Of a stretch of 64,000 bases of DNA, positions 6,380 through 28,560 are shown piece after piece. Numbering within the stretch: position 1 is the stretch's first letter; each line of letters begins with the position of its first letter. Under the pieces are notes generated by a model. That model was given only the letters and a program-made list of their open reading frames with translations. It ran no database searches and was not told where the DNA came from. A program made the position numbers and the translations under genes. Origin of the DNA: Octopus vulgaris (lineage: Eukaryota); assembly GCA_951406725.2 (NCBI GenBank), contig OX597826.1, forward strand, positions 57,784,001-57,848,000, read 5' to 3'.

Positions 6380-6580
6380 GGAGATATTATTTAACTTGGA
6401 AAGAAGTGACAGTTGGTGATAGGAAGGGTATCTAGCCATAATAAATCTGCCTCAACAAATTCTGTCTGGCCACAGTGAGTGTGGAAAAGTGGACATTAAG
6501 AATCAAAGTTAAAATGGATGACGATGATGACGACAACAATGATGATGATGACGACAACAGTGATGACGATGACAACAATG
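6380..6580 (+). mobile_element. Decayed SINE 3' part with (GAT/GAC)n tail
   Basis: ggtgataggaagggtatctagccata...ggaaaagtggacattaag followed by gatgacgatgat repeats. Tail resembles family C. Confidence 0.5.
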
Positions 6581-7475: not shown

Positions 7476-7534
<59 letters not shown>

Positions 7535-7662
7535 TACTACTACTACTGTGTGGAATAGGTGGTAAATGAAGATAAACAATTGAGCATGTGTCGCAATTTA
7601 CAAGCATTGGACGAAGATTGTTATGACTCTAATAGTAACATGCAAATGGATTATATGATAAA

Positions 7663-7995
7663 TCATCATCATCATCATTTAACCATTTAACGTCTGTTTT
7701 CCATGCTGGCATAGGTTAGATGGCTTAACAGGAGCTGGCATGGTCAGGGGCTGCACCATGTTCAATTGTCTGTTTTTGGTGGTTTCTACAGCTAGATACC
7801 CTTCCTAATGCCAGCCACTTTATAAAGTATATTGGGTGCTTTTCACATGACACCATCACCAGTGCTCTTTTCATATGGCACCATCATCAGTGCTTTCTAC
7901 ATGGTACCAGCAGCAGTGCTTTTTAGATAGTGCTATCACCAGTACCTTTTATGTGGCACCAGTGTTTCTTATGTGGTACCAACACCAGTGCTTTT
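7663..7995 (-). mobile_element. Family C SINE with internal degenerate ~26-bp tandem array
   Basis: (cat)n-tttaacgtctgttttccatgctggcat...gatacccttcctaatgcca..., then about 6 degenerate units of gtgctttt.a..tggcaccagcacca (7836-7995). Confidence 0.7.
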
Positions 7996-9872
7996 GATCA
8001 AGTTCGATTAAATAATTTGATAAATGATAATAAAATTCTAACTTAAGTCAAAAATGAAATAAGTTTTTTAAAAAAAATCTAAGATTATAGTCAATTAGGA
8101 AATCTCAAAATTATTGCTTACTCTGCTCAAACTAGCATCCAACTGTCCCTCTAAGAGGAAACATTAGATAATGTAGTCCTAGATACACCATACCCAAATA
8201 AAAATTTAGTAATGCTTAAACAAAGAAAAGTCTACTTCTTCAGTTTTATACAACCAGAAGTGTATTATAAACATCTCTATATAAACGCATTTTAGTTATC
8301 CAAAAAATAAGATTTATTATAAATGGTTAGTTTAGAATAGCTGTTTATTTCTCCAACAACAAATATAAATTTTGAAAACAAATTGATATTGCAAAAGCAA
8401 CCTATTACTCTAATACAAAACCTTGGTAATAAATAATTTTGGAAAGAAGATATTCTGAAAGACAATTATAGTAATTCTAATACCAATTAGAATGAAGTTG
8501 TTAGCAGTATTTTTAATGTCCCTATTATTATTAATTTAAACAAATTTTGTGAACAAATTCTCAATAATAACATTCCATTTTGCCAAAGCAGTTCTTTTCA
8601 TTAGTCATGTTAGAACAACCAAATGGGTAAAATAATAGACTTTGGTAAACAAGACAGAAATAAGCTTTAACTGACTAATACATTTCACTAATTTATAACT
8701 ATAGACATTAAGAAAATGTAAAGCCAAATTTTACAAATGATTCTTTAACAAGGTTATATTTGTTCACAATTATGTATGTCTGTGTGTATTTGAATACAAA
8801 TATATTCATTAATATATGTGTATATGCATAAATGTATGTGTGTGTATCTATATGTATGTAGATGAATGTATGAAAATTAGGGAAGAAAAGAAGGCAATGG
8901 AAGAAGAAAATGAAAAGGATGGTTGTGAAAAAGACATTAAAGAGAAAATTGTAACTGCTCAAGCAGACATGGAAGAGAAATCTGTTCCCTAATTTCTCCC
9001 AGTGTTGTTTAGTTCCTAACCATTTCCTCTAGCTTTAATCTGAACTTACTTTCAGCCTGATTTACTTTGTATCAAATTTTCTGTAAAAGTGTAATTTCAA
9101 GTTCATAGATGTTTGTAAGTTCAAGCCAAAGTGATGGGGACATTTGCCCATCTCCACACACACACACACACACACATTTCTACCTCATATTAAACTGAGT
9201 TTGATAATTTAGTTTCTGCTGTAATGGCAAGGGAAGAAAAGAAATTTAAAAAAAAATACATAAATAATCATCTAAACAAAGTAGACAGCAGATTGCAGCA
9301 TCATTAACACGCATCTAACTTCGTTGTCTTGTTTTTGCCCTCCGACATTAGATAAACATGCATTGTTCTGTCCAGAACTTTAAGACTAACCAGTATAGCC
9401 AGACAGGATGACAAGAATACAAAGACAGCATTACAGAAAATAAAAATGGAGAAGTTTGAGAAAGACAGAGAAAGGTATAATTCAATTTGTTGAATAGCAC
9501 TTTGAACAAAAAGTAGAAAGGATCTGTAGAGCAAAACAGAAACTTCACAAGTGCATGATCAAAAGAAATTAAAAGAATATTAGTTTAACATCAAGGCTTG
9601 ACTACAGGAAACACAAGTTAAAATGAATTTCAAATACATCAAGTAAATGAAAAGGCTTTAATTGAATTTCGAGAATTAAACATTAACAAAAGCAGTAAAG
9701 AGTAATGAATGCTGGGTAATCAGAAAAGGAAGATAATCATGTAAGTAAGGAACGAGATTTTCTTTGTATAATGTTCAGTGAATATAAAAGAAAAGAAAAT
9801 GAAGAATGTCTCCAAGAAAAATACGTGTGTGTGTGTATGATGTATGAGCAAGAGTCATTCTCTCTCTCTCTT

Positions 9873-9874
<2 letters not shown>

Positions 9875-9922
<48 letters not shown>

Positions 9923-10075
9923 CACACAACACACATACACACACATGCATGCACACCTACAAATACACATATACACATCTGCACACACATACGTACACAC
10001 AATCACACACACACACACATGCATGCACACCTACAAATACACACATCTGCACACGCATACGTACATACATGCACG

Positions 10076-10106
<31 letters not shown>

Positions 10107-10128
10107 ACATACACGCACACACACACAA
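9875..10128. repeat. Compound (TA)n/(CA)n microsatellite with internal ~30-bp duplication
   Basis: (TA)n, then a CA-rich tract in which cacacatgcatgcacacctacaaatacaca occurs twice. Confidence 0.9.
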
Positions 10129-10399
10129 TTACCACTACCACTAATCATAAATAACACAAGAGCCCAGGTTTGGAAATAATCAGTATGGATTTCTTTAGAC
10201 AAGTGACAAAGCTAATTGTTTTGTTGTGAAGACAGTGACATAGCATGGAAGGGATGGTGCTGGCTGTGTGTACCAGACAAGATGGTCACTTTATTTATGT
10301 GTGTTTGCTGTGGTCAAAGGTTTAAGGATCAGGGTGGTCAATTTGTTTACCACACATGATGGCCAAAACCCATGCTGCACCACAATATGGAGAAGTGTA

Positions 10400-11760
10400 G
10401 TGAATGGGAAAATTTGAACTCTGGTGGTTGACAGCCATATGGTGGCAAAAGCAGTTGAAGGCAAGGGAAGCAGCTGGACCATCAGGGATATTCACTAAGA
10501 TGCTGAAACTATTTGGCAAAATAATACACAGTAGTCCTTCATATAGTCAATCGAGTTGTAAAGGAAAGTGCCATCCTCAGTGACTGGCATTGCAGTGTTT
10601 CTTTATTAACTACAACAAGAGTAAAGAAAATGCTCCAGAATTACAGAAAAGTTAACTTAATTTAATGAAGATAACAGAGAGTTATAACTCTACTATTTTG
10701 GGAGAGAATTAGCTTAGATGCAAGAGTATCACTTATGCTTTTTTCTTAGTGAGGCAACATTGATATAGAGAAGGCCAGTTAGTGGCCACAAAGAAAATTT
10801 GATGTAGATGAATGGCTGGTGAGAGTTGTGCAAGTCATATACAAAGTCATATATAGTAAGGTGGGAATTATCAATGAGTTTAGTAAGGGACTTAGCATAC
10901 AGGTAGGTGTCCAAGATTTGGTTGTCAGTCCCTTCTAGTTTATGTAGTTTGGCAATCCATAATAAAGAATTTCAAAATTGTACCTGTTGGTACTGCTGTA
11001 TGTTGCTGATCTAGCTCTTAAAACAAAATTAAAAAAAAATTTTAGAGGAAATGCTCCAAACATGGAAGCAGAGCCTAGAAGCAGGAAGTCTAAAACTCTG
11101 TTGCTATTTGGATAGTAGCCAGGCTTGATATGACTAAAAAGGGTGTAGACTATAGGCACACAAGTGATGCAGTAGGATTACAGCAGGCTGGCATAGAAGA
11201 ATGACTTTAACAAATGCACTAGTATTTAGCAGCATTATCACCCATTAATTGAATGTCCTCAAATGTGTTGTAGGCTAGCAAAAAGTAAGCTTCTGTTACT
11301 TAGGGGCCTATTCAATTTTGAAAGGAGGGTGTTCTGAAAATATAACCAGTGTATGAACGGATGGAAAAGATTTAGGGATGTATAACTTCTGCTGGTAACA
11401 AAGGAATTGTCTTTCCAAGTGAATAACAGATTGTATAACGTTTGAATATGAAATACAATATTGATTAATAGATGACTACTGAATGTACTAGGATGTGCAA
11501 GAGGAAGAAAGCATATTGGACGTGTTCTGCTATACATCTAGCATTAGTTTGCATCAATGATGGAGAACAAAGGAGCTGAAAGAAAACCTGGGAATAGTTG
11601 TGTTCATACAAATATGTGAAGCATAAGGATGAGTGTTGGGTTAAGTAGCACCAAGCAATTCAAGCAAAAGGAACTGCTGAAGAGAAAGTAGCTCATGAAA
11701 GTGATGATAAGGCGTCACAATATGCAACAGGATACTGTGCTGAAGAAGACCTGTCTAACT
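10400..11760 (+). mobile_element. Heavily degraded RTE-clade LINE reverse-transcriptase fragment
   Basis: Manual translation gives remnants of RT motifs in the correct order: AAGPSGI (~10469), IxSDW (~10572), ERISLD (~10702), QVGVQDxVVSPF (VGVHQGSVLSP-like, ~10900), LLYVADLAL (YADD-like, ~10993), WKQSLEA (~11063), WKRFR...LLVTKELS (~11362). Many stops and frameshifts. Confidence 0.8.
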
Positions 11761-13338
11761 CATGAAAACATGAATATATAACTTGTGTAAAATACTGATG
11801 TTAAGAGGAGGAATGAAAATTAAATTTGTCCAATGTTTAACAATTTCTTTTAACAGATTTCTCTACCAACAATTGCAGTGATTTCAAACATAGATTTTAG
11901 GTGCCAGATTTTGAACAGGTGGCAGTAACGTTATTCATCTACTACTTATTTAATCAAATACAGATTCATCAATCACAGAAGGATGAAAAGCAATGTTGAC
12001 TGCAGTAGGATTTGAACTCGGAATATAAAGGGAAATAACTAAATATCACAAGGCACAATAATAGCAATAATAATGACAACAATAACAAAGAAGTACTTTT
12101 AATTAATGATGCTGTATAAATTGGATGTTTCCAAAAATTTTTAGTGATATGGTTACTAATGATACACAAGAATTGCTAATATTAAAATAGATTAACAATA
12201 TATATTCTATGCAAAGCTTTAATCTGAATTTGCAGATATGTTCAGCAAAAGAAAATGTTCTACTCCAAAAGAGAGAGCAGAGAGATTTTTTTAAAAAAAG
12301 TATTCATAAACACATCTGCAATGAAAATGGTAATCTCAAATAAAATGAAAATCTGCTGAATAATAATAAACAAACCTCTAAAACAAGGCTACATGTCATT
12401 AGATTTATGCATGCTCATGTACAACTCAAATTAAAATTTCAATCTATAATAATTAATAAATGCAAGACTAATTAGTGATATCTATCTCCCACCAAAAATT
12501 TATCCTGAGGTTACATGAAAAAGAAGCCTGACAAATAAATTACTTGAAAAATATTGAGATATAAAATTTAAGAAATATATTTATTTATTTAGAGTTCAAG
12601 AGACTTAAATTGAGACCATGTGTATTGAAACTGCTAAGTTAGTCATTTATGTCTTAAGTAGCATAGTACTGTATATCAAGCAGGTACATGGAACTACATA
12701 GACTCCATATATAATTGTAAAATCAAAAAGAAAAAAAAGAAAGATTAGCATGATTATAAGCTAATGAATGATAGGTTGAGAATTATGAAAGCTGATATGG
12801 GATAAATATCCATCATTGGTTGAACTAGTTGACACAACATTGATAAGTCAGTTGCTGCAAGGAACCTTAGTAAATTAATTATCTTCTAGTTGGAGTTTCT
12901 CACCTGCTCCGTAAGTGTTTTGCTAGTGAAGAAGATTGGCAGATGTAAAATTAGTAATGCCAATAGTGGAAAGGTAACTTTGGAGTGTGTGTGTTGACAG
13001 AGCAATCAACACATTGATGCAAGCAAGCAGACAGACAGACAGAGATAGAGGTTTGACAAACCTGCAAGATGTATATGATGTTTCAATGGTAACAATGGCA
13101 ATTATTATGGTCAAAAGCAATTTAATTACAGTCAAATGAAGCAGGTAGGAAAAAAAAACAAAACAATTTTTTAAGCTAGTAAATAACGTAATTAAACATC
13201 AAATATGATAAAACAGTTTTCACAGAATGATGATGGTGACGATGGTGGTGGTGGTGATGATGATGGTGATGATGATAAATAGATGCATTAGACTAACCTC
13301 ACTAATTTGTTTCATTATTGATCAACAAAACATTTTTG

Positions 13339-13386
<48 letters not shown>

Positions 13387-13780
13387 TATACTACAAAACT
13401 TATTTCAATGTAATTTTACAATTCTATAAAATACAGAAGAAACTTTCTGTTTAATAATGGATGTGATTAAATCTGCGAATTAGGTTTTTGGAGTAGGCTT
13501 TGAATAAGCTGCCTTGTTGATGTTGTTGTCATTCTTCTTGTTATGTGTTATGTTGTTGATGTTGAACTTGTTTACTCAAATTATTTGCCTCTATTTTGAT
13601 TGGCAAGCTGTGTTGTTCTTAATTAAAGAATTAATTCATTTTCTCTGCCTGTATTCCTGTCTCTCCCTCTTCCCAGAAATGACGATTATTGATTTGAACA
13701 AACTCTGGTTAGAAACAGTAGCAAGGATACTGACCATGGTTCAATACTAGGAGCAGGAAAATATTTTAAACAATATTTGG

Positions 13781-13811
<31 letters not shown>

Positions 13812-14028
13812 AATATCAAAGGGTAATCAGAAATATTAGAAATTTCCATTACCAATAGCCTAGCTTGTAAAAATTTAGTCAATAGACTATATATTATTCA
13901 TATAAATACAGTGTACATTTAAACACATAAGAAGCATCCATCATAGGACTCCTTGCACGCTAGAGAGAACAGTTAAATTCCAAACCACTATTAGGGATAA
14001 AATTTCGAAGGGAATGAAAAATACAAAA

Positions 14029-14112
14029 AGTGAGATATCAGTACAGCCATCGGAAACAAGCTGATTAGTTCTATGTCAAGTAATAGTGATGATAATGCTG
14101 ATGATGAAGATA
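14029..14112 (+). repeat. 84-bp direct repeat, copy 1 (copy 2 at 16444-16527)
   Basis: agtgagatatcagtacagccatc(g/a)gaaacaagctgattagttctatgtcaagtaatagtgatgataat... with 3 mismatches between copies. Confidence 0.9.
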
Positions 14113-14172
14113 TATAAATATATGTGAGTGTGTATTTGTGTGTGTATATGTGCTTCTCTTTCTCTTTTTTTC

Positions 14173-14565
14173 TCTTTTTACTTGTTTCAGTCATTTTGAC
14201 TGCGGCCATGCTGGTGCACCGCCTTTAATCAAGCAACTCGACCCCAGGACTTATTCTTTGTAAGCCCAGTACTTATTCTATCGGTCTCTTTTGCCGAACC
14301 GCTAAGTGACGGGGACATAAACACACCAGCATCGGTTGTCAAGCAATGCTAGAGGGACAAACACAGACACACAAACATACATGCACATACATATATGTAC
14401 ATATATATGACAGGCTTCTTTCAGTTTCCGTCTACCAAATCCACTCACAAGGCATTGGTCGGCCCGGGGCTTTAGTAGAAGACACTTGCCCAAGGTGCCA
14501 CGCAATTGGACTGAACCCAGGACCATGTGCTTGGTAAACAAGCTACTTACCACACAGCCACTCCT
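14173..14565 (-). mobile_element. tRNA-derived SINE (family A)
   Basis: Near full-length reverse-complement match to 58531-58946, including the internal (CA)/(TA) tract and the tail ccagcatggccgcagtcaaaatgactgaaacaag. Confidence 0.9.
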
Positions 14566-14607
14566 CTGCTTGTGTATATAAGCTTCCACGAAAGGCGCCG
14601 GATCCGT

Positions 14608-14747
14608 TGTTATAAGAGTCGGAACTTTTAGTTCAGCGTATGCGGCTGGCCTCGCATCGAAAGGGAATATATATTTATAGAACTCAACACAGGTTCTTTG
14701 TTGAATAAAAACATTGTGAGAATAGGAAGCTTCAGTGTCTCACAACA
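14608..14747 (+). mobile_element. Possible small solo LTR
   Basis: Termini tgttataaga...tctcacaaca (TG...CA, imperfect inverted ends), with an internal TATA-like atatttatag and AATAAA. TSD is only imperfect (tccgt/accat). Confidence 0.3.
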
Positions 14748-14883
14748 ACCATTGGTTTCGTATTGAGAAGGGAGGTTTTAAACTACGAAATGGTACTGAA
14801 ATCTTCAAAACCTCATATTTTAAAGATTTTAGTACCAAACAGTAGCCACTGATGATCATCATTGTCAGTATTGTCATGGTATT

Positions 14884-15247
14884 TATAAATCATCATCATC
14901 ATTGTTCGACCGTGGTCGAGACAATGGAATTTACCATGCTGCGCCAGACTTCACGGTCCATCATGGCATTACGGAGGTCCTGTTGCTGGATGCCTGTATC
15001 CCTGGAGATTACATCAGGGTAGGAGAGTGTGCACCCTCTGGTATTGTGAGTAGAGGGCGCACACTATCCTACCCTGATGTAATCTCCAGGGATACAGGCA
15101 TCCAGCAACAGGACTTCTGTAATGTCATGATGGACCGTGAAGTCTGGCATAGCATGGTATGACGTGATGATTCCATCGTGACTAATCTCAAAATATGAGG
15201 TTTGAGATTTCAGTACCACGGTCAAACAATGATGATGATGATTTATA
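14884..15247. repeat. Long fold-back: two inverted copies of an RTE-like LINE 3' end with (GAT)n tail
   Basis: Arms 14884-15039 and 15052-15247 are reverse complements around a 12-nt loop (ggtattgtgagt). The right arm translates RGRTLSYPDVISRDTGIQQQDFCNVMMDREVWHSMV, typical of an RTE ORF2 C-terminus. Confidence 0.9.
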
Positions 15248-15695
15248 GGAAATATTTGCACATGTGAGAGCCAAAAGAAATGAATTTTCTGTGTGATCAT
15301 TCAATGGTTTTTTTTTTTTAACTTACTACTCAAGGACTTGCAGCTTTTCTTGTACAAATTGAAGCGTTATCTGATCGTTTGATATTTGGGTTGTTGTCTT
15401 TAAAAAAAACTGTTACTTGTTTTGCTTCAGATTTTCTTTGCAACATCCTAAAATGCACAATTATATTGATAGTTTCCATTTCTGAACTAATTAGCAGTCA
15501 TTCCTGTATAATCAGTGAAGGTAGTTTAATAGACTATATGCCACATTATCTGATAAGCCATGTGAGGGCGAAACTAATAGTTGTGATGTGAAGACAATAA
15601 CCCAGCTATTAATTAAAATATGTAATACTCTACTAATTAGCATTGAATTCTCTTTCGCTTAATATTGCTTTTAATTGACACACACAATGAGATTG

Positions 15696-16103
<408 letters not shown>

Positions 16104-16443
16104 AAGAGAGTAACACTGTTTATAATACTACTTGTACTATTAGGCCACTGCTGCTGTAGTTGTGGTTGCTGTTGTCACAACATCAATAGATATATGTACT
16201 TAGATGATCAAGTAAAAAAAAAAATGTAAACAAAAAAGACAAAATAAGAAAGAAAAAAAAAACAAGAAGTTATAAGAAAAGTAAAGATGAACGAAAGAAA
16301 GAAAGAAAGAAAATTAATCATTGATTGCTTTTCTAAGATCTTAGAATCTCTAGTAACAAAGAGCAACAGGATGAACGGGCAAGCTGGGTGATTTACAGAC
16401 ATTAATATAGCAACCACTTGTGAATGGGCAATAAATGCCTGAT

Positions 16444-16527
16444 AGTGAGATATCAGTACAGCCATCAGAAACAAGCTGATTAGTTCTATGTCAAGTAATA
16501 GTGATGATAATACTGATGATGAGGATA
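16444..16527 (+). repeat. 84-bp direct repeat, copy 2
   Basis: Matches 14029-14112 and runs into a (GAT/GGT/AAT)n tract. Confidence 0.9.
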
Positions 16528-17147
16528 GTGGTGGTGGTGGCGGTAATAATAATAATGATGATGCTGATAGTGATAAAGATGATGATAGTGATGGTGATGA
16601 TGACAGGTATTGTTTTCTTTTTTCATTGGTTTGTGTTTTGTTATCTATTTATTTACTTATTTTTTTGTTTTTTTACTTTTCTTTTTCTTTTACATGCTGG
16701 AATATGAGAAGGTGGATGCAAGATTACTTCTACTAGCTAATTAGTCAGTCTTAAGTAGCTAGCAAACTAGTGTCGATACTCATATTACTTAAGTCTTCAG
16801 AAATAGCAAAGGGAATTAAAATGAAGCAACCTTCTCCCCGACCCCCGCACCCACCTACCTTCATGTCACCTTGCCTGCTTTCTCTTAGACAACAGTAATT
16901 GTGAGGTGAAGTGTATTCTTCAAAATTAGAAACTACATTATCAACAACAGCAACAACAACAACAACAATAATAATAATAATTATTATTATTATTATTATA
17001 TTGAACAGCATCAGCAATATCAGAGGCATGATTAGAATCAACAGGAGTATGTTTTAAAAGAAAAAAAAAATTGTAGGAGAAATGGTTCCGGATTAAGAAT
17101 TATTAAAGTCATTCTGTCACAGCATATAAACACACACACACACACAC

Positions 17148-17178
<31 letters not shown>

Positions 17179-17887
17179 TGCACGCATACATACCAAGACA
17201 TAATATGCTTACAGTAAAGGCAAAAAGAAAGATAAATATAGCATAGCACAAGATTGTTTTGGATAAGGAAGATTTCCCAAGAGTGGTTTTGTTAATTACA
17301 GCAACATTGCTATAATATTCACAGAGGGACCTTCAACTTTAAAAGACTTCCTTGAAGGAGTCAATAGAAAGCCAACTTATCTCTCTCTCGAAAGAAATAA
17401 AAGCGGCAGAAAAAAGCATACAGAAAGTAAATTCTTCAACAGCCACTAAAAAAGATGGAAAATAAGGTACACAGAATATAAAATAAATTACCTTTTCAGT
17501 GCAGCTAGCATTCATGTATGATAACAAAGCTGTTCCTTAAATACACACATACACACACACACACACACACACATGCACCAAAACCATTTGAAAACACATA
17601 TGCACATATGTGCACAAATTTTGCATTTTAGGGTGTTATATAAAAAGATAAGTACAATTGATAAGCTTTTTCCACATCTAAAATTACCAAAATGGCTTCC
17701 TGAATTTCTATTATCACAGGACAATAGTCAGAGAAACACTATCAGTGAAAAACCCTACAGCCATAACATGTGAATTAATTCTATGAAAACTTAGAAATTT
17801 TACCTGGTTAAAAAATAAATAAATAAATAAATGAATAAATAAATAATAAGAAACAAACAAAAGATGAAAGCAAATCTTGAGAAGAGG

Positions 17888-17964
17888 ACTTACCACTCAA
17901 CATCTAATTCAACTCAGAAGATACTTACCTAAAAAGAAAAAGAAAATATAAAAAAAAATTAGTG
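17888..17964 (-). promoter_or_regulatory. Candidate recursive splice site (ratchet point) with 35-nt poison RS-exon
   Basis: Minus strand: branch-like CACTAAT (17964-17958), AG-free U-rich tract, TAG|GTAAGT at 17929/17928, 35-nt segment 17928-17894, then a second donor GTG|GTAAGT (17893-17888). Confidence 0.6.
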
Positions 17965-19602
17965 AGAAATAAAGGAACTTTAAGAAGGGAAAAAAATTTT
18001 TTTAAAAGGCAGAGAGAGAAAGAGAGAAAGAGATGAAATATGAAAGACATAATATATTAATAGAACTGGTTGAGAAAATAGCAACTAAGTAGATAGGTCA
18101 CCTCAGTTGAACAACTTGAATACACGGAGGCTCCGAGTTCAAATTATTCATGACTTTGTCGACCAATAAAGAAACAGGGAATTTAGTAATGCTGAATAAT
18201 GAATGGGAAACCCAGTTGGTTGCTAAGTGATAGAGAGGTTCTATCAGCTTTGGAAATAAAACAAAAAAAAAAAAGAATAAGAAAAACCATCCCCTCATGA
18301 TTGGACAACCTTATCAGCCACCTTGTGGACCATGCAACATATTGTGTGGCAGTAATTTTACAGAAACTAAGTGGCGTGTTAATATAGAATTTTTAGAGAA
18401 AAAAAAGAAAAAGCTAGAGAAAATTTAAACCCAATAGCAGGAAGCAACAAAAATGTCATTCTCTAAACACAGAAGCAGAAGAAATGACTATTTCTGAATA
18501 TTAACAAGCTACTAGTGTCTTATCTTTTTTTTTACCAAATTATCCCTTGTTCTTAGCACATTGCAAGTTTTTTTTTTTATTTTGACAGAAAAAAAAATGT
18601 TGAAGAGGATGATAATATGCAGTTGTGACATTGTACGTGCCATAAGTGGTATCTACTCTAAGCCTAACAAGGTACTGGAGTGATAGACAATTGGGTGTAA
18701 GTAACCAGTAGATGAGTCAATAATTCTTGTCACTTTTTTTTAGCATTAAGGGTCTATAGTCTATGCAAGCCTTCCAATATTGATAAGATCTCAATGGCTG
18801 ATGTTCCATCTGAATATCTATAAATTGACACATATATGAGAACTGTTGACAGGGAAAGAATTACAGGTGGTTGATATCCTGGAGGGGGTGGTTTGGGAAA
18901 AATGTAGTTTTGAGCAATCAATACGGAAAGATAAGGTAAGGTACATAAACTAAATGTACATTAAATTGGTAAATTATTATCCTGAACTGCAACATATGCT
19001 CTTTTTCCAGGATTGCATTAGGCTGAATGGCATCCTGATGTAGAAGTTAGTACTTTTAATGAATACACAAGCAATGGATTCTGCTCAGCTTCCATCTTTT
19101 TTTATCCCAAACAGTCACATACACATTATTTCAGAACTACAATTAATGATATTAAAAAAAAACAAAAAACTAAGTAACTACATATGCTTGTGCTGCCATT
19201 CCAAACCATTTTCTGTAAAAGCAATTAAGACAGTTCTGTGACATTTTTCATGAGTAGTACTATATGAAATTTTAAAAAATTGTAAATTTATTACTATACC
19301 ACATGATATAGATACTTCTATGTGATCACTCAACCTGTTTAGCACAGGCCCTTAGAAATTCCGAGCCAGTGTCTTGCATACTGGAAGACCACTAAGAGTG
19401 AGGCATTCCTTAGCTTCAAATCCAGGCTATGTCTGCTCTGATAGTTGGCAGTGACTTGGTCAGCAAATCCTCTGCAATGGTCAACAATCAATGGCTAGAC
19501 AAGCTGTTATGGATCACACTATCCCAAAGTGTGTATGCATGAGACCAGGAACCATGTGTGAAATTGTATTCCCACCAAAACACCAAACATGACTCATTTG
19601 TT

Positions 19603-19845
19603 GGAACCAGCTCAACTTACGGAAGCCAGCTCAACCTACGGGAGCCAGCTCAACCTACGGGAGCCAGCTCAACCTACGGGAGCCAGCTCAACTTACGGGA
19701 GCCAGCTCAACCTACGGGAGCCAGCTCAACCTACAGGAGCCAGCTCAACTTACGGGAGCCAGCTCAACCTACGGGAGCCAACTCAACTCACTGGATCTGG
19801 CTCAACCCATCAGAGCTGGTTCAGCCCACTGGAACTGGCTCAATC
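19603..19845. repeat. 19-bp minisatellite (gggagccagctcaacctac)n
   Basis: About 9 near-perfect units followed by degenerate units. No spacers. Explains the overlapping ORFs 19558 and 19589. Confidence 0.95.
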
Positions 19846-20556
19846 CACCCTGACCACTTACAAGTAAGTACTCCACTTGTCAGATATGGCGGCCAAATCA
19901 CCCTCTAATCCTACCTTGCCATTTGGTAAATAAAATCAGAATATGCATGAAATTTTACAGTCCTACTTATACTATGCCTAAAACAAAATACAAATGGTAA
20001 ATGTCTGTTTACTTAGCCTGATATGGGGTGAAGCAAGATTAGCCTCAAGTTTGAGAAAAAAATAATCATGTCAGATGCCCTTTAGCACAAGTTTTCAAAT
20101 CAACATAAGTAAGAAAAAAGTAATTCTGTTATTTTAGAAGTGAAATTACTGTAATACTCTTAATATTTCTAACTTAATTTGAAATATTTACCACAAAACA
20201 GTTTACCAGAAAGAAAACTGTTCAGGTATTCCTTGATCAATAAGTTGCTCTATTGATTTTTGTCACAAAAGTGAAAATGCCAGGCAAAAGGTAACCTCCC
20301 CATCCCCATTACACATCTACTAGAGAGGGTGTAGAATGGCAGAAATGAAGAGCAAACAGTGTAAAGGATTAATGGGGGAAAATGTCAGTGAAATGATTGA
20401 TTAACAAGTAGACCTTTTCAGATGAAATCTGGTTCACTGAAGTCTAACATATACACTACTCCACCACACACACACTTTCGTATAAGCTTTAGACATCTTA
20501 AAATCATCAGATTGTCTCACCTTAACCGAGTTTGCTAAATAGAGTTGGAGAGTTGA

Positions 20557-20597
<41 letters not shown>

Positions 20598-21818
20598 GTG
20601 AGGGAGAGAGTAGAGAGAGAAAAAGTGCCAAATACAGAAGAGAAAGGAATTAACTCTTTGCAAAAGAAAAGACAAAGGGGAGAAAAGCCAAAAGTGAAAG
20701 TAGAAAAAGTGGAAAAAGGTGAGAAAATAAATTTAGAAAAAGCAGGAGAGAGAGAGAGAGAAATACAGCTAAAAACAGAAAGACAGAGAGAGAGTGTGCG
20801 AGAGAGAGAGAGAGAGAGAGAGAGTGAAAGTGTGTGTCCATGTGTGTGCCGGTGGGTGTGTGTGTGTGTGCACAACATGTATGGCTATGTAATTGAAAGA
20901 AATTATGGATATATGCTAATATATGTGCTGAGAAAGCTGGTTTGGGAATTTGTAGCTTAATATATTCAGAAACTGTAAATATGTCTGTGAAGATTGTGCA
21001 TACATGTGCATGCGTGCATGTGTGAAACATGTTATATTAAAGACAGAACTATGTTCAAGTCTGCTCCTTTTTATTGAGGATTTTTATATCTCCTTATTAG
21101 TCCTTTGCTTAGTTTGGAAAAGTAGTGTTCCTTAAATCCATTTGTTCATCAATGTTTCATGATCTTGGCCTCATCATCAGAATGAAATAATGGCAATAAT
21201 GGCGTATTGTTTGCATGCCTTGAAGTAGGTCACAAAGAATCATGGGAATACTGTTACAAAGGATAAAATTGCACATGTCAGATGTAAAAATCATGCAATA
21301 ATAAAGTCCAAGAGAGTCAAGACTATTGAAAAGGTTGCAAGACGCAACGAAAATTTTAGGAAAATAAAAATAAGAAATAAGTGGAAATTTTACCGGTGAG
21401 TGTGTTAAATAATAAGGCACTAAAAGAGAATGACTTTCCCCAGACACAAAAGACCAAGTAGATTTCATGATTTGCTTTACATGTAACATATCTGTGTACC
21501 CATTTTTGGTTAGTATTCAGCTATTAATGAAGCTTAGGGGTTACTCAATTTTTTTGTGGAAATTTACATTATGTATTGCTGTCAACTAATTATTTTTCAA
21601 TGTAATTTTATTTCATGTAAAGTATTAATTATAATGAGTTGAAGTGAATGGCTCTTTGTATAGAAATGGTTAGCCTACAATGAAACGCAGTACTTGTGTG
21701 TGGTACAACAGAATCTGCATATTACACTGGTCATCTGAAGTGCATTCTGAGATTTGCTAATTTGTGGTTTCATGTTAATGAAGAAATATTTATTTTGATA
21801 TTCTAGTAATATATTATA

Positions 21819-22010
21819 TAAGGTGGTGAGCTGGCAGAATTGTTAGCACACTGGACAAAATGCTCAGCAGTATATTGCCCATTGCTACGTTCTGAGTTCA
21901 AATTCTGCCAAGGTCAACTTTGCCTTTCATCCTTTTGGGGTCGATAAATTAAGTCGATGTAATCAACTAGTCCCCTCCCACCAAAATTTAATGCTTTGTA
22001 CTTTTAGTAG
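21819..22010 (+). mobile_element. SINE family B (tRNA head plus Deu/Nin-like core), CpG-decayed
   Basis: ggtggtgagctggcagaattgttagcacactggacaaaatgc...ggtcaactttgcctttcatccttttggggtcgataaa. Same family as 44125 but with CG>TG/CA changes. Confidence 0.85.
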
Positions 22011-22424
22011 ACAGGCTTATAGTATTCTAATTAGGTGTTTGTGGTTAGGTGTGATACATGTGTCTTGTTTTAATAACATATTTATCTATTTTATAATCAG
22101 AGTGTATTTACTTCTCATAGTGTACAATAAGTGCAGTTTATGTATTTTTGTGCATGCTGTATCTGTTGTACATAAATTTCTTCTTGGCCTTGACTCCATG
22201 GCCTTGCCTATCAATAAATAAAGGTACCCATTATTATCTAATATTTGTTTTGCACATAAGATTTCCATATTTAAAGCTTCTTAATGGATGAAAACTTAAA
22301 CTGTTACATCAGACATAAATGTATGACATTTTCTCATCAATTGACAATGCATTTACAAGGAGCCACTGCAACTCATAATATACTACATGAAATAAAATTT
22401 GACAGAAAAACATTAGTCTTATAT

Positions 22425-22456
<32 letters not shown>

Positions 22457-22578
22457 ATTTTACAAATGATGAGAGGCTTTACTTTGCAGATAGCAAAATA
22501 CAAACACAGAAGCAACCAAACCTTCCTGAAACTTCAGTCAAGTAAGACAAAACAGAATAATAACCACAAACGTCTGTC

Positions 22579-22695
<117 letters not shown>

Positions 22696-22789
22696 CAAAT
22701 AGCGGAATAGAGACAGAGAATGATAGACACATAAAAAGAATGACAGAAAGAAGACTGATAATGATGATAGTAGCAGTCCATTTGATTGA

Positions 22790-23001
22790 TTCTAGTTTCA
22801 GCTCACGAGCTGTGGCCATGCTGGGGCACTGCCATTTTAAACGAATTAAGTCGATTACATCGACCCCAGTGCGTAACTGGTACTTAATTTATCGACCCCG
22901 AAAGGATGAAAGGCAAAGTCTACCTCGGCGGAATTTGAACTCAGAACGTTAGGGCTACACATTTCGCCCGGTGTGCTAACGGTTCTGCCAGCTCGCCGCC
23001 T
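22790..23001 (-). mobile_element. SINE family B with family-A-type 3' tail
   Basis: Reverse complement of aggcggcgagctggcagaacc...cctttcatcctttcggggtcgataaattaagtaccag..., ending ggcagtgccccagcatggccacagctcgtgagctgaaactaga. Confidence 0.85.
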
Positions 23002-23585
23002 GTGTAATATTAAACTTTACACATTTGTGTAATATTAAACTTTGTTTTTCTTCCCCCTTCAGTCTTTCTTTCAATTTTTCTGTCTTTCTTGGTTTCTCAG
23101 TATCTCTCTAGAATATTGGAATAAAGAGTGACAAAGACTGAGAAACACACATATAAAGAGAGTGACAGAGAACAAGAAGAGTGATAGTGAAGATGCTAGA
23201 AGTTTGAATCTTATACACAAATTGTGGCAAAATCCTTCTTGAGAACTTGTGATATAATTTACATTGGATCTAACTTCAGAATGAGTGTAGTGTGGATTTC
23301 ATTTCAAAGTGCCTCCTTTGACTTTAATTTCCTAACAACAAGTATTTCCAGGAATTACAATGGATTAAAATTCAGAAGGATAGCTCAGATATCTGCCACC
23401 ATACTCTTGTTCCTCTCCAACCACACATCCTGGTTATTCCTCTGTCATTGCTCTATTTCATTGGTCACAGTGCCTTCTGTAATAGTTGTAACCACTTGGT
23501 CATGCTGCCTTGAATGTACATACATGTCATAGAGTACTAAGTATCACTATCACTTGTACTTGTATCAAACATCTTTCTTACCACC

Positions 23586-23616
<31 letters not shown>

Positions 23617-23781
23617 CAAATAAGAAAATGGAGGAACAAATCCATTTCAGTCATCAATTTACAGATGTTACCATTTCATATTATTTATTAACTATATAAA
23701 TAGGAACATCCAAATCGAACAAAACAATAAACATCAATATGCAAGATAATAATACCATAAGAATAATACACATAAAATGCT

Positions 23782-23905
23782 CCTTACAGCTGTTTCAGCC
23801 TGTAGATAAAAGTATCTCATTCTGCCTATATTAGTCAGATGTATTGAGGTAATATGCAGTTAAAAATGAGGTACTTATATATATATCCCAAGGCCTCGTC
23901 AGAGA
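23782..23905 (-). ncRNA. Type I hammerhead ribozyme motif (Penelope-like, long stem II)
   Basis: Minus strand: CUGACGA (23902-23896), stem II GGCCU...AGGCU extendable to ~12 bp and closing ~75 nt, GAAAC-AGCU-GUA (23796-23785) with a palindromic tetraloop. Stem I is only 3 bp. Flanked by (TA)n. Confidence 0.6.
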
Positions 23906-24184
23906 TTATAAAGTACAATTATAAAAATGTAAATATAAATATGAAACAAAATACACATACATTTGGATATATATATATACGTATATATCCATACATATAT
24001 ATACATATAAATGCATACATTTAAATATATATATTATATATATATACATATATATACATGCATATATATATATATATAAAAACATATATATATTTATAAA
24101 TTATCATCATCATTTACATACACATACATACATATCCACATATATACACACACATATATACACACACAAATATAAATATGCATA

Positions 24185-24217
<33 letters not shown>

Positions 24218-24223
<6 letters not shown>

Positions 24224-24420
24224 AAATCCAAGAAAAGAAGAACAAACAACGCGAGGACATGGTACATGTAAAGTATTAGCAGATGATTAGTGGAGGAAAG
24301 TAAGACTTTAATGTTTCGAGTAACGCTCTTCTTCAGAAACAGAGGGAAGTCCAATAGAATGGAAGACGGTGAAGAAAATCACCAATGATTCACATGTGGT
24401 TATATTTTGAAATGACCAGA
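24218..24420 (-). mobile_element. Penelope-like non-autonomous repeat carrying a decayed minimal hammerhead (24306-24340)
   Basis: Reverse complement gtttCTGAAGAaGAGcgttaCTCGAAAcaTTaaag. The whole segment is homologous to 63430-63633 and is embedded in (TA)n. Confidence 0.65.
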
Positions 24421-24445
24421 AAGGAATGGGTGATATATATACGTA

Positions 24446-24476
<31 letters not shown>

Positions 24477-24635
24477 GCATATATGTATATTTATATACAT
24501 ATATGCATATATGTATATTTATATACATATATAAATACATATTTTCACATGCATATATATATTTTATATGCTCACATAAATATTTCGTAAGCACATATAT
24601 TTATATTTGATATGCATATAAATATGTTTCATATA

Positions 24636-24682
<47 letters not shown>

Positions 24683-26029
24683 GCATGTATGCCCATACAC
24701 ACACACACTCACACACATAGATATATATATATTTATATGCGTGTGTGTGTATTTACATATACACTAAAAACATCTAGATTGAGATTTATAGAAAGCAAAG
24801 ACACTTGCTAAGTCATTTCTCAAAAGGGACAAGAGAAAATTGTCAAGAACCACTTAAAAACTTTTTGCAACTGGGACAGTTTCTTATGGTTGCAGTTAGA
24901 ACTGCTTAGCAAACAAATGAATATTCTAAGACTGTTTCTTGTACAGAGAAATTTATAAGAAAAGCTTCATTGAAGCTTTGACAACAGCAAAATCACTTCA
25001 ATGCCCATCCATCATGTTTCATAGATGAACTGCCCACTACCATCCACCCTTCTAAGTCAAGACAATTGGGATTACATACTGTAGAATGAATGGAGATAGA
25101 TTCTTGCATAAACATGGAAAATAGTTTTTAAGTAAATACTTTCACTCTGCTAAGCCAAAGCATATTTCATTACAGCTACAGAACCAGGGAGAGAATTTCT
25201 TATGTAATAATACAATAGCATTGTCATTATATGAATATGTGAGAGACAGATGGTGGGGGTAGAAGATACAGGCAAAATAGATATGGGGTGGCATAAGTAG
25301 AAAGATAAGATGAGAAGGGATGGAGAAGGAAGAAAGAGATGGAGAACATGAAGAGAGAGTGTGGGATTGAAAGAAAAAGAGAAGAGAAGAGAATAAAAAG
25401 AGAGATGAGACAGAGGAAGAAAAATGAATTGAAAAGATAACAAAGGAGAGGAATAGGAGAAAAATTAGAAAAATATATGAAAGACAGAGAAAGAAGAAAG
25501 GAAAGCAAGATGGAGAGAGAAGTAGGAAAAGAAAGAGAGAAAGAAAAAGAGAGAGGAAGTGAAAGGAAGAAGACTGAGGAAGAGATAAACTAAAAATGAG
25601 AGAGAGAAGAAGGGAGACAAGAGGAAAGAAACGGAGTACCAAAGAAATGAGAAGAGAGTGCAAGGGAGATGGCAGGGGAGAATGGAAGAGAGAAATAGCA
25701 AGATTTGTTCGTGTCACATGTCAAAAAAGAGAAAAAATGACAGCAAGTGTAATAATTTGCATGTGAGGAAGAGTATAAAAGAAAGACTGTGAGATTGTAC
25801 AGCAGGCAGAAACAATAGGGTGTCTGATTTTAGTTATATTTACAAATACATCTGAAACAATTAATAGTCCTAACAGCAGGGAAAAGGTTAGCAGGAAAAC
25901 ATGACCTAGATGAAGAGTACAATGAACGACATTGCAAAAATTGAAGATTTCTTTTGTTTCAGCAAGAATCAGAGCAGAAATCAAGCCATATATATATAAA
26001 TACACACATTCATGGAGGATAGATATATT

Positions 26030-26220
26030 TCTTTACTACCCACAAGAGGCTAAACACAGATGGACAGAGAAATGGATTAAGTCGATTACATCGACCCCAG
26101 TGTGTAACTGGTACTTAATTTATCGACCCCGAAAGGATGAAAGGCAAAGTCGACCTTGGCGGAATTTGAACCCAGAACGTAATGGCAGACGAAATATGTG
26201 CTAACGTTTCTGCCAGCTCG
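26030..26220 (-). mobile_element. SINE family B with internal deletions
   Basis: gtcgattacatcgaccccagtg...atcgaccccgaaaggatgaaaggcaaagtcgacc...tctgccagctcg. Confidence 0.85.
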
Positions 26221-26222
26221 AG

Positions 26223-26256
<34 letters not shown>

Positions 26257-26257
26257 C

Positions 26258-26942
26258 ACAGGCATGGCAGTGTGGTAAGAAACTTGCCTCCTGACCACAT
26301 GGTTCTTGATTCAGTCCCACTGTGTGACACCTTGGACAAAGGTCTTCTACCATAGTTTCAGGCCAACCAAAGCTTTGGTAAATGAAAATTGAAAGAAGCC
26401 TGTTGTCATCATCATCATCCTCATCATCGTTTAGCGTCCGCTTTCCATGCAAGCATGGGTTGGACGGTTCAACTGGGGTCTGGGAAGCCAGAAGGCTGCA
26501 CCAGGCCCAGTCTGATCTGGCAATGTTTCTACGGCTGGATGCCCTTCCTAACGTTGTCATCATCATCATCGTTTAACGTCCGTTCTCCATGCTAGCATGG
26601 GTTGGACGGTTCGACCGGGGATCTGGGAAGCCAAGAGGCTGCACCAGGCCCAGTCTGATCTGGCAATGTTTCTACGGCTGGATGCCCTTCCTAACGTTGT
26701 GTATATAAATATATGTGTGCGTGTGTGTGTGTCTATGTTTGTCCCCCGGTACTGCTTGACAGCCAGTGTTGGTGTGTTTACATCCCCATAACTTAGCAGC
26801 TTGGCAAAAGAGACTGATAAAATAAGTACCAAGCTTAACAAAAGGATAAGTACTGTGGTCAATTCATTTGACTAAAAGTTCTTCAAGGCAGTATTCTAGC
26901 ATGGCTGCAATCTAATGACTGAAACACGTAAAAGATAAAAGA
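26258..26942 (+). mobile_element. Family A SINE interrupted by a tandem pair of family C SINE fragments (26405-26700)
   Basis: Family A head 26258-26404 and body 26701-26942. Between them are two ~145-bp minus-strand family C units ending at the identical point ccttcctaacgttgt. Confidence 0.85.
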
Positions 26943-26994
26943 CAGATAGGTAAGAGTTGTGAGTGTGTGTTTATGTGATCAAAACAGACATAGT

Positions 26995-27590
26995 TTACAA
27001 TAGTTAAGAAGTTCACCATAGCAACCAATTTTCCCTCAAATAATATCCCACCATCTTATAAAAGAAAAAGACTTGGTACAAAAGATAAGGTAATCCTAGA
27101 TACACAGACTGAATGCAATATGAGATGATCATGGTTAGAATGCATTTTGATAACAAGTCTGCTTGATTAGGATTAACCCAGGATTAACCAACCATAACTT
27201 AGTCTATAAAAAATCCAAGTTAGATTAGGTTAGTTGTTATTGCTTACAGACAGATTTATGATTAAAGGTATTCCTGCCATGATCATTTATCTGTTTGTCT
27301 GTTTTGGAGTATCTTAGATTACACTTCATTTTTACTGACCGAAGGTAAATTCAAGGTAGATTTAGTTGTTATTTCTAAAGGATCAAACGACTGCAAAGAG
27401 GCTCCCTCATTAGCTCTAATTAATTTAGTCTAGTCTGGTGGTTTTTCTCATAGGTCATGGCATCTTTCTAGAGTTATCCAAGACTACATGTCTAATGTAT
27501 CCTTTTCACTGGCAGTAAGGTGTCATTTGAGTAAGATTAGGCTGCTATTTCTAACAAGTTGAATGACTGCACCAAGGCTTTCCCTTTCAC
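26995..27590. repeat. Cluster of decayed copies of an unclassified interspersed repeat in both orientations
   Basis: Motifs ccaattttccctcaaat...aatcctagatacac...ttttgataacaagtctgc (~27023-27190) and their reverse complement (27230-27420, 27470-27590). Related remnants at 1-60, 8140-8195, 19870-20050, 31270-31470, 52350-52500 and 62530-62710. Confidence 0.55.
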
Positions 27591-28139
27591 TCAAATCAAG
27601 TTGTCTTAATTTAACAGCTGTTCTTACTCTAAGTTTATCCAACTTGAGTCCGCATCCTCTTTATAATCTTGTTAAATGAAGTTCTAAAATCACAAAAAAA
27701 GTATTCTCTTTAATTCTGATAAAATTACTGCACATTCCAGTATTCCACTATACAGATTTGTCCAAAAACCATTATTTTAATTTTACTGGCAAATTCACAG
27801 GTGATTGATATATGCTATGAGAATAAGGTTACTAAGAATATGTGACTCCATAAATTGAAAGTAAATGCATGTATTGAATAGATAAGTTATAAAATTTGCA
27901 AGGCTTTGTTCAACAGTTCAAATTCTGACTTGAGTATGGCGAAAAAAACTTAGTCACTTGCATGATACCTCAATTAATTACTAATGAACACATCATTACA
28001 ACATCCATTTTACTTAGAGACAAATCCAATAAACAATGAGTAATAAGTTACTAAGTTAGTTGCTGTTCAACCATGGGTTAACCTCAAGCAGTTCTATGAA
28101 ACAGCCTTTGTATTAAATCCCTACAGAGACTAAGCATAA

Positions 28140-28560
28140 CTGATCTCTCTCTCTATCCGCTCAGTCGAAGTCGACACTCGGTCAGTTCTATCCTGGGCTG
28201 TTTCCTTCAGACTAGCCTTGTCCAGTCCGGTATCACTCCTGATGGTGTCAAGCCAGTGGGTTCTTGGTCGGCCTCTTCCTCTCTTGCCGCTGACCATTCC
28301 GAGCATGATGTCCTTCTCCAGGGATTCTCTCAGCATAATATGACCGAAATATGCCAATCTACGCTTGGTGATCCCAGCTTCTAGCGACATTTTAGGCCTT
28401 ATCTGCTTAAGAACTTCTCCATTGGTGAGCCTCGCTGTCCATGGAATCCACAAAAGCCTTCTCCAACACCAAAGCTTGAATGCATTAATTCTCTTCTGGT
28501 CAGCTTTCTTTAGTGTCTAGGTCTCGCATCCATATAACTGATAGTGACCACCAATTACAA
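28140..28560 (-). mobile_element. RTE/BovB-like LINE 3' fragment
   Basis: Translates YGCET*TLKKADQKRINAFKLWCWRRLLWIPWTAR...RRLAYFGHIM...LEKDIMLGMVSGKRGRGRPRTHWLD, a diagnostic RTE ORF2 C-terminus. 5'-truncated. Confidence 0.92.

What the first reader, a model, noticed from the sequence alone, without database searches (positions are those of the whole stretch)
17888..17964. Complete recursive-splicing module with a poison RS-exon in a giant intron
Seen (minus strand): branch consensus CACTAAT 30 nt upstream, an AG-free tract ttttttttttatattttctttttctttt, and TAG immediately followed by a perfect donor GTAAGT. A second perfect donor GTG|GTAAGT lies 35 nt later. The 35-nt segment (GTAAGTATCTTCTGAGTTGAATTAGATGTTGAGTG) is not a multiple of 3 and has a stop in all three frames (TGA, TAA, TGA). 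Established: AG|GURAGU ratchet points followed by a cryptic RS-exon define recursive splicing in long Drosophila and vertebrate introns, and RS-exon inclusion typically triggers NMD. Inference: this intron is removed stepwise. I am not aware of this being described in cephalopods, but cannot check.
Basis: partly seen in the sequence, partly recalled or inferred. Interest (0 to 1): 0.82.

Follow-up and report, generated by a model that had tools for sequence, protein, structure and literature searches.

The report
Ratchet splice sites in octopus ephrin
This signal is one of nine evenly spaced, same-strand fused "intron end / intron start" signals inside a predicted 1.4-million-base first intron of an octopus ephrin (nerve-wiring) gene, so the intron is likely removed in steps as in flies, although no RNA junction was found to prove it.

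Summary
The motif is real: branch motif, pyrimidine tract, TAG|GTAAGT at 17930/17928, second donor 35 nt on. The host gene is ephrin, on the minus strand. A conserved coding first exon lies 1,402,923 nt upstream of exon 2; a cuttlefish-cluster protein has it joined to exon 2. In that inferred intron, 9 strong acceptors carry a perfect GTAAGT on the sense strand and 0 on the antisense (0.23 expected), spaced 60-263 kb, more evenly than chance. Genome-wide, a strict pattern has 154 hits, about 118 above controls. They cluster on one strand and are followed by a second donor (21 of 64 vs 6% background; median 56 nt), like Drosophila RS-exons. Inclusion after exon 1 would give an immediate stop. 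Not shown: four RNA-like contig sets gave no junction (inconclusive), conservation was untestable, and no octopus protein of the distal isoform was found. Against the fly rule, the RS-exon donor scores above the regenerated one at 7-8 of 9 sites. Six literature searches found no mollusc report. The scan noted similar candidates in other genomes, none here.

The parts
17958..17964 (-). branch-point-like motif CACTAAT; predicted branch A at 17959
   Evidence: sequence; branch motif at -45..-18 in 27 of 64 genome-wide hits vs 14% background and 7 of 30 controls
17931..17958 (-). AG-free polypyrimidine tract
   Evidence: sequence; 16 of 18 pyrimidines
17921..17930 (-). ratchet point AG|GTAAGTAT: 3' splice site at 17929/17928 fused to a donor complementary to this genome's U1 5' end over +1..+8
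   Evidence: U1 5' end read from the genome
17894..17928 (-). predicted 35-nt cryptic RS-exon; inclusion after ephrin exon 1a would give a stop at codon 75
17888..17896 (-). RS-exon donor GTG|GTAAGT (G at 17893)
   Evidence: second donors enriched at +20..+100
17798..17806 (-). possible weaker alternative RS-exon donor CAG|GTAAAA at +125
   Evidence: not tested further
42363..42423 (-). TAG|GTGAGT at 42372/42370: either a weaker ratchet point or the donor of a 53-nt ATG-initiated phase-2 mini first exon at the edge of a CpG-rich zone; unresolved
1..64000 (-). the whole window (G000:C13:57,784,001-57,848,000) lies inside the inferred 1,402,923-nt first intron of the distal ephrin isoform (C13:58,019,852-56,616,930). 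Parts outside the window, all minus strand, C13 coordinates: distal coding exon 1a 58,020,073-58,019,853; proximal coding exon 1b 56,937,319-56,937,165; shared exons 2-6 within 56,616,929-56,584,302; eight sister ratchet points at 57,659,019, 57,565,431, 57,416,525, 57,257,077, 57,147,977, 57,028,644, 56,765,948, 56,677,067
   Evidence: T>A skew on the sense strand in 14 of 14 full 100-kb bins

Best explanation
The site is likely a recursive-splicing ratchet point with a cryptic 35-nt RS-exon, the first of nine such signals inside a predicted 1.40-Mb first intron of the octopus ephrin gene. Shown in the sequence: the module, the nine-site same-strand series, its even spacing, the two phase-matched first exons, and a genome-wide excess of such sites with downstream donors. 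Inferred steps: (1) transcription from the distal promoter runs through the window on the minus strand; (2) the acceptor is recognised by exon definition with the donor at +35, and exon 1a is spliced to 17928, removing about 218 kb (or 24 kb if 42372 is used first); (3) this regenerates AAT|GTAAGTAT, which splices to the next ratchet 143 kb on, and so on to exon 2, leaving no trace in mRNA; (4) if the +35 donor wins, the exon is kept, ATG-TAA truncates the protein just after exon 1, and the RNA would go to NMD. Because exon 1 ends in AAT rather than CAG, the regenerated donor lacks the -1 G. The +7 A at all nine sites would compensate by extending U1 pairing.
For: (1) Intron: 9 of 1440 sense acceptors vs 0 of 962 antisense are followed by GTAAGT (0.23 expected, P 4e-12). 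The single perfect hexamer (9) outnumbers all one-mismatch variants together (7). Gaps are 218, 143, 94, 149, 159, 109, 119, 263, 89 and 60 kb; CV P 0.004, minimum-gap P 0.006. (2) The nine sites are not copies of each other: RS-exon body similarity equals that of random sets, P 0.24. (3) Genome: Y12-N-YAG|GTAAGT has 154 hits vs 43 reversed. The +5 control gives 164 vs 196 and the -1 control 351 vs 427; odds ratios are about 4.3, P<1e-13, excess about 118 sites. (4) A second donor lies at +20..+100 in 21 of 64 non-repeat hits (6.1% background, P 9e-11) and 7 of 9 ephrin sites, vs 3 of 30 controls. It peaks at 40-60 nt, median 56, and 23 of 29 lengths are not multiples of 3; fly RS-exons are about 50 nt (PMC8605326). 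(5) Neighbouring hits within 300 kb are same-strand 10:0 without the ephrin locus, vs 3:1 for controls. (6) Host: PF00812 hits only this locus. P0011 joins an exon-1a-like N-terminus (63% identical, E 2e-21) to exon 2, and genome-wide that N-terminus matches only C13:58.02 Mb. Exon 1a plus exon 2 is in frame. (7) +7 is A in 9 of 9 vs 148 of 350 intron GTAAGT (P 4e-4) and 16 of 64 genome hits (P 2e-5); +7/+8 is AT in 6 of 9 (noticed post hoc).
Against: No direct RNA evidence supports use of the site. No octopus protein with exon 1a was found; the exon 1a-exon 2 join rests on one unnamed protein in a cuttlefish cluster (6 contigs of at most 1437 nt). With exon 1 ending AAT, the RS-exon donor scores above the regenerated donor here (U1 duplex -9.1 vs -7.3 kcal/mol; matrix 5.9 vs 3.5), and at 8 of 9 (duplex) or 7 of 9 (matrix) sites. 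In flies the ratchet donor is usually the stronger (PMC8605326; hth is an exception there). Both scores are crude. 6 of 70 genome hits examined are repeat copies. 4 of the 10 co-oriented pairs come from one cluster whose sites may be paralogous; without it the count is 6:0, P 0.016. Only 3 of 9 ephrin sites pass the strict branch-motif test. One site (56,677,067) has no good second donor.
Confidence: 0.8

Rival explanations
1. It is a ratchet point, but of a different transcript. An internal promoter in the CpG-rich zone at window 36-76 kb (a mini first exon ending at 42371, or a long non-coding RNA) supplies the upstream exon instead of ephrin exon 1a.
For: CpG observed/expected is 0.73-0.78 at C13:57.82-57.86 Mb vs 0.25-0.34 in the flanks, like the zones around both known first exons. 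A 53-nt ATG-initiated hydrophobic phase-2 frame ends at the donor 42370. No perfect ratchet lies in the first 218 kb of the intron. An exon ending TAG would regenerate a donor (6.65) stronger than the RS-exon donor (5.9).
Against: The hydrophobic frame may simply reflect a T-rich tract. No ephrin-type first-exon motif was found in that zone. Sense-strand T skew is continuous from 58.02 Mb. Exon 1a is conserved and has no other ephrin body to join.
Confidence: 0.08
2. The 35-nt segment is a poison or decoy cassette exon: it is spliced in as a unit to dampen the long ephrin isoform, and the GTAAGT at its start is not re-used as a donor.
For: The downstream donor is predicted stronger than the regenerated one at 7-8 of 9 sites. 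Inclusion would give an immediate stop.
Against: This does not explain why all nine begin with a perfect GTAAGT plus +7 A, why +5 G is enriched genome-wide, or the even spacing. Nine poison exons in series would leave little productive mRNA.
Confidence: 0.07
3. It is a chance or repeat-derived motif in an AT-rich, microsatellite-rich intron, with no function.
For: About 36 of the 154 strict genome hits are expected from background. 6 of 70 examined hits belong to repeat families. T-rich tracts are more common on the sense strand (1440 vs 962 acceptors).
Against: 0.23 were expected and 9 observed in this intron after allowing for the acceptor count. The site is single-copy in the genome apart from short tract matches. 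It has the branch motif and a second donor as well.
Confidence: 0.03
4. The sites are U1/U2AF landing pads that keep a megabase transcript from ending early, or act as splicing decoys, without catalysis at the site.
For: Even spacing and full U1 complementarity over +1..+8. U1 protection of long transcripts is recalled knowledge, not from a call.
Against: U1 binding alone would not need an AG placed exactly before GT, a branch motif, or a second donor 35-95 nt on.
Confidence: 0.02

Closest known systems
Drosophila intronic ratchet points with cryptic RS-exons (Ubx, kuz, Bx, luna; Duff et al. preprint 10.1101/006163, part 1 of 2 read; Joseph et al. PMC8605326, part 1 of 6 and passages read)
   Same: Pyrimidine tract plus YAG|GTAAGT, branch about -30, short mostly out-of-frame cryptic exon of about 50 nt, several evenly spaced sites per intron, sense-strand only, developmental or neural host gene.
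   Different: Scale: 1.40-Mb intron, nine sites, segments 60-263 kb, against fly introns of 11-133 kb, at most six sites, segments 2.6-63.6 kb (mean 18 kb). The RS-exon donor is predicted stronger than the regenerated one at most sites. There is a gene-wide +7 A. No RNA proof here.
Mammalian RS-sites and the 'binary splicing switch' (Sibley 2015, seen only as described in review PMC5126111 passages and PMC8605326)
   Same: Competition between the regenerated donor and the RS-exon donor; an included RS-exon carries a premature stop.
   Different: Only about nine fully suppressed intronic sites were noted in mammals (PMC8605326), whereas this genome has about 118 excess hits under a strict pattern alone.
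Computational RP-site enrichment in large introns of fly, mosquito, bee, beetle and sea urchin (Shepard 2009, PMC2773006, parts 1-2 of 5 read)
   Same: Sense-over-antisense excess. The density here, 0.64 per 100 kb, resembles their 0.48-0.81 for bee, sea urchin and beetle (different scoring).
   Different: No mollusc is among their 13 species, and the parts read contain no RS-exon or spacing analysis.
Ephrin family (PF00812); octopus efn is expressed in a gradient in the optic lobe (PMC9815951, passages read)
   Same: The exons are 92-100% identical to a protein named from Octopus (P0005).
   Different: All the octopod entries retrieved start with exon 1b or a predicted alternative. None has exon 1a, 1.08 Mb further upstream.

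Membership tests
Recursive splice site (ratchet point with RS-exon) | Full 3' splice site fused to a consensus 5' splice site (YAG|GURAGU) | tested here: met
Recursive splice site (ratchet point with RS-exon) | Lies on the sense strand inside a long intron | tested here: met
   1,402,923-nt intron inferred from exon homology, phase and uniqueness; the join itself was seen only in a cuttlefish-cluster protein
Recursive splice site (ratchet point with RS-exon) | Enrichment over the complementary strand and over matched controls | tested here: met
   9 vs 0; genome 154 vs controls
Recursive splice site (ratchet point with RS-exon) | Short cryptic exon bounded by a downstream donor | tested here: met
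   +35 here; 7 of 9 and 21 of 64 vs 3 of 30 controls
Recursive splice site (ratchet point with RS-exon) | Split reads from the upstream exon to the ratchet point | tested here: inconclusive
   none in 4 of 4 contig sets at depth about 3-13; contigs drop rare forms, and the RNA status of the runs is a guess
Recursive splice site (ratchet point with RS-exon) | Saw-tooth read density and internal lariats | not testable with these tools
   only contigs were offered for the listed runs
Recursive splice site (ratchet point with RS-exon) | Motif conserved above the flanking intron | tested here: inconclusive
   one contig of a second organism keeps AG|GTAAGT and the second donor, but the whole piece has only 2 substitutions in 385 nt; no distant genome was available
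Recursive splice site (ratchet point with RS-exon) | Regenerated donor generally stronger than the RS-exon donor (a tendency with known exceptions) | tested here: not met
   weaker at 8 of 9 by U1 duplex and 7 of 9 by a matrix that ignores +7/+8; crude scores
Poison exon (NMD-coupled) | Inclusion creates a premature stop upstream of later junctions | tested here: met
   stop at codon 75 for 8 of 8 RS-exons tested
Poison exon (NMD-coupled) | Included isoform exists and is stabilised by NMD inhibition | not testable with these tools
   needs an experiment
Ephrin (PF00812) host gene | Ephrin domain across the spliced exons | tested here: met

The most novel reading that the evidence does not exclude
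Octopus uses recursive splicing genome-wide (more than 100 sites) as its way of handling megabase introns. In ephrin, a hidden, conserved distal promoter drives an isoform with a different leader through a 1.4-Mb intron cut in ten steps. Because exon 1 ends in AAT, every ratchet is tuned at +7/+8 and still faces a stronger poison donor. The nine sites would then form a serial, regulatable go/no-go filter that sets the timing and amount of the long ephrin isoform in neural patterning.
Probability: 0.3. Interest if true: 0.82.

Novelty: new member of a known kind. Interest (0 to 1): 0.63.

Why it matters
Recursive splicing has been shown in flies and mammals and inferred in other insects and sea urchin; my searches found no report for molluscs. 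A fly-type ratchet system in a 2.8-Gb cephalopod genome, with segments about eight times longer than in flies, would suggest the mechanism is ancestral in bilaterians and scales with intron size. It yields nine exact junctions and a genome-wide list that existing total or single-nucleus RNA reads can test at once. It also exposes a 1.4-Mb ephrin isoform absent from the octopod proteins retrieved, in a gene graded across the optic lobe.

Tried and rejected
RNA: no listed holder was on record as RNA. Four RNA-guess contig sets (X1, X3, X6, X14) were laid on 16330-19530. There was no joint or loose end at 17928/17929 that reflects splicing: the depth spike and loose ends at 17931-17961 look like foreign T-tract matches. 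One X3 contig reads unspliced through the site. An X1 contig stops at 17890, which is not a splice boundary. All of this is inconclusive.

Host-gene search: ORF and exon scans of C13:56.98-58.05 Mb found no convincing internal coding exon. One 78-nt candidate at 57,570,612 was not followed up. The ORF ending at 40599 gave only sub-threshold low-complexity Pfam hits and was rejected as the upstream exon. Searches with exon 1a alone found no homologue and one tandem-repeat junk hit.

+7/+8 signature: shared +7/+8 letters as a general property of neighbouring sites was rejected (0 of 8 other close pairs share both). The five GTAAGTAC sites of the second cluster were not counted as independent support, because their bodies resemble each other. 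Stops in three frames were rejected as evidence.

Literature: 'recursive splicing'+octopus 0 papers; +cephalopod 1, reference list only; +mollusc 0; +lophotrochozoa 0; recursive+squid+long intron+splice site 1 unrelated listing; the 'ratchet point' search was swamped, and none of the 10 listed papers held the term. Subscription journals are not covered and no supplements were read. This scan had no notes on this genome.

Full report
OBSERVATION. On the minus strand the window reads CACTAAT (17964-17958), an AG-free pyrimidine tract, AG at 17930-17929, GTAAGTAT from 17928, and GTG|GTAAGT 35 nt later. It is the only YAG|GTAAGT in the window and is single-copy in the 2.8-Gb genome apart from short tract matches. 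The 35-mer has stops in all three frames, but so do 58 of 350 comparable 35-mers.

HOST GENE. The window is G000:C13:57,784,001-57,848,000. I assembled 1.464 Mb around it. No convincing coding exon was found for about 850 kb downstream. Ephrin exons then appear at 56.58-56.62 Mb on the same strand, the only PF00812 locus found in the genome (counts are lower bounds). They are 92-100% identical to a protein named from Octopus (P0005). A motif scan found two candidate coding first exons, both ending in AAT|GTAAGT in phase 2. Exon 1b (56.937 Mb) is the one in the octopod proteins P0001, P0002, P0005 and P0006. Exon 1a (58.020 Mb) matches the N-terminus of P0011, an unnamed protein in a cluster with Sepia EFNB, where it is joined directly to exon 2 (63% identity, E 2e-21). 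Genome-wide, that N-terminus matches only exon 1a, and exon 1a plus exon 2 is an open frame. The window therefore lies in an inferred 1,402,923-nt first intron, with T>A skew on the sense strand in 14 of 14 full 100-kb bins. No octopus protein carrying exon 1a was retrieved, so the join is inferred for this species.

THE SERIES. In this intron, acceptors with at least 14 of 18 pyrimidines and no AG in 16 nt are followed by GTAAGT 9 times of 1440 on the sense strand and 0 of 962 on the antisense; 0.23 were expected (P 4e-12). Thresholds 13-16 give 10, 9, 7 and 7 against 0. The threshold was chosen after seeing the data. The window's site is the first of the nine. Gaps are 218, 143, 94, 149, 159, 109, 119, 263, 89 and 60 kb, more even than random (CV P 0.004), and the 263-kb gap contains exon 1b. 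The sites are not paralogous. Seven of nine have a good second donor at +20..+100 (3.3% background). All nine have A at +7 and six have AT at +7/+8 (background 148 and 42 of 350), completing pairing with the U1 5' end read from this genome. Among 64 other genome hits only 16 have +7 A. My inference, post hoc, is compensation for exon 1 ending in AAT, which leaves the regenerated donor without -1 G.

GENOME-WIDE CLASS. The strict pattern Y12-N-YAG|GTAAGT has 154 hits against 43 for the reversed pattern. Changing +5 gives 164 vs 196, and changing the acceptor G gives 351 vs 427, inflated by a repeat. Both put the excess at about 118. I examined the first 70 of the 154 hits and dropped 6 as repeat-family copies. 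Of the other 64, 21 have a second donor at +20..+100 (6.1% background; controls 3 of 30; Fisher P 0.003 with the ephrin sites), 27 have a branch motif (14% background; controls 7 of 30), and 46 have T-rich sense flanks (controls 13 of 30). The implied exons peak at 40-60 nt, median 56, and 6 of 29 are multiples of three. Among the first 100 listed hits, neighbours within 300 kb are same-strand 12:0, or 10:0 without the ephrin locus, or 6:0 without the second C13 cluster as well; controls give 3:1.

MECHANISM (inferred). Exon definition across the 35-nt RS-exon lets exon 1a splice to 17928. The regenerated AAT|GTAAGTAT then splices to the next ratchet, and so on to exon 2. If the RS-exon donor is used instead, the phase-2 exon end plus GTAA reads ATG-TAA, a stop at codon 75 for all 8 RS-exons tested, which by the established junction rule would trigger NMD.

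RESULTS AGAINST. Contigs of four RNA-guess runs show no junction at the site; they were shallow and drop rare forms, so this is inconclusive. Conservation could not be tested beyond a near-identical relative. The RS-exon donor scores above the regenerated donor at this site (-9.1 vs -7.3 kcal/mol; 5.9 vs 3.5 bits) and at 7-8 of 9 sites. That is the reverse of the usual fly pattern, though hth skips its exon despite a weaker ratchet donor (PMC8605326 passages). The matrix was recalled and ignores +7/+8. A CpG-rich zone at window 36-76 kb and a 53-nt phase-2 mini-frame ending at 42371 leave room for an internal promoter.

COMPARISON. It works like Drosophila ratchet points with cryptic RS-exons (10.1101/006163 part 1 of 2; PMC8605326 part 1 of 6 and passages). 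There, introns are 11-133 kb with up to six sites and segments average 18 kb; here the intron is 1.40 Mb with nine sites and segments average 140 kb. Shepard 2009 (parts 1-2 of 5) found sense-strand enrichment in four insects and sea urchin and studied no mollusc. The competition and degradation model is from passages of PMC5126111. Octopus efn is graded in the optic lobe (PMC9815951 passages). Sequence-level membership criteria are met, RNA-level ones are untested or inconclusive, and one tendency is not met. Searches found no mollusc report; subscription journals and supplements were not seen. Earlier scan notes describe similar unproven candidates in other genomes; they were not tested here.

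VERDICT. A real feature and probably a functional ratchet point (0.8). It is a new member of a known kind, in a new phylum and at an unusual scale, with a directly testable list of junctions. Interest 0.63.

Noticed in passing
G000:C13:58,020,073-58,019,853 (L043:1853-2073, minus): Conserved distal coding first exon of ephrin, absent from all octopod ephrin proteins retrieved; it gives an alternative leader and first domain strand, 1.08 Mb upstream of the annotated first exon.
   Followed up: yes
G000:C13:4.47-4.81 Mb (L248-L252, plus): Five co-oriented sites, all GTAAGTAC, each with a strong second donor at +45..+55. Their bodies are more alike than random sets (0 of 2000), so they may be ancient duplicates. 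A DUF7044 (PF23071) exon lies 51 kb downstream on the same strand (L258:402-543), in CpG-rich DNA.
   Followed up: partly
window 42370-42423, minus: TAG|GTGAGT that is either a weaker ratchet point or the donor of a 53-nt ATG-initiated hydrophobic phase-2 exon compatible with ephrin exon 2.
   Followed up: partly
window about 36000-64000 and on to C13:57.86 Mb: CpG-rich zone (observed/expected about 0.75 vs 0.3) inside the CpG-poor intron, like the zones at the two ephrin first exons; possible promoter or enhancer domain.
   Followed up: partly
L053, L055, L073, L233: A dispersed repeat family (72-81% identical) carries a ready-made pyrimidine tract plus TAG|GTAAGTAT, a possible source of new ratchet points.
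   Followed up: no
G000:C13:57,570,612-57,570,535, minus: 78-nt exon-like stretch with good splice sites and an open frame, 5 kb upstream of a ratchet point; unassigned.
   Followed up: no
G000:C13:57,028,948 and 57,028,644, minus: Two AG|GTAAGT sites 304 nt apart, the upstream one with a weaker tract.
   Followed up: no
window 50021-51055 (minus), 28130-28516 (minus), 19603-19848; G000:C13:57.216-57.218 Mb: Decayed mariner-like transposase, a LINE fragment, a short tandem repeat and a longer LINE reverse-transcriptase remnant (labels recalled from the translations, not searched).
   Followed up: no
G000:C18:48.97-49.21 Mb: Cluster of more than 20 U1 snRNA genes.
   Followed up: no
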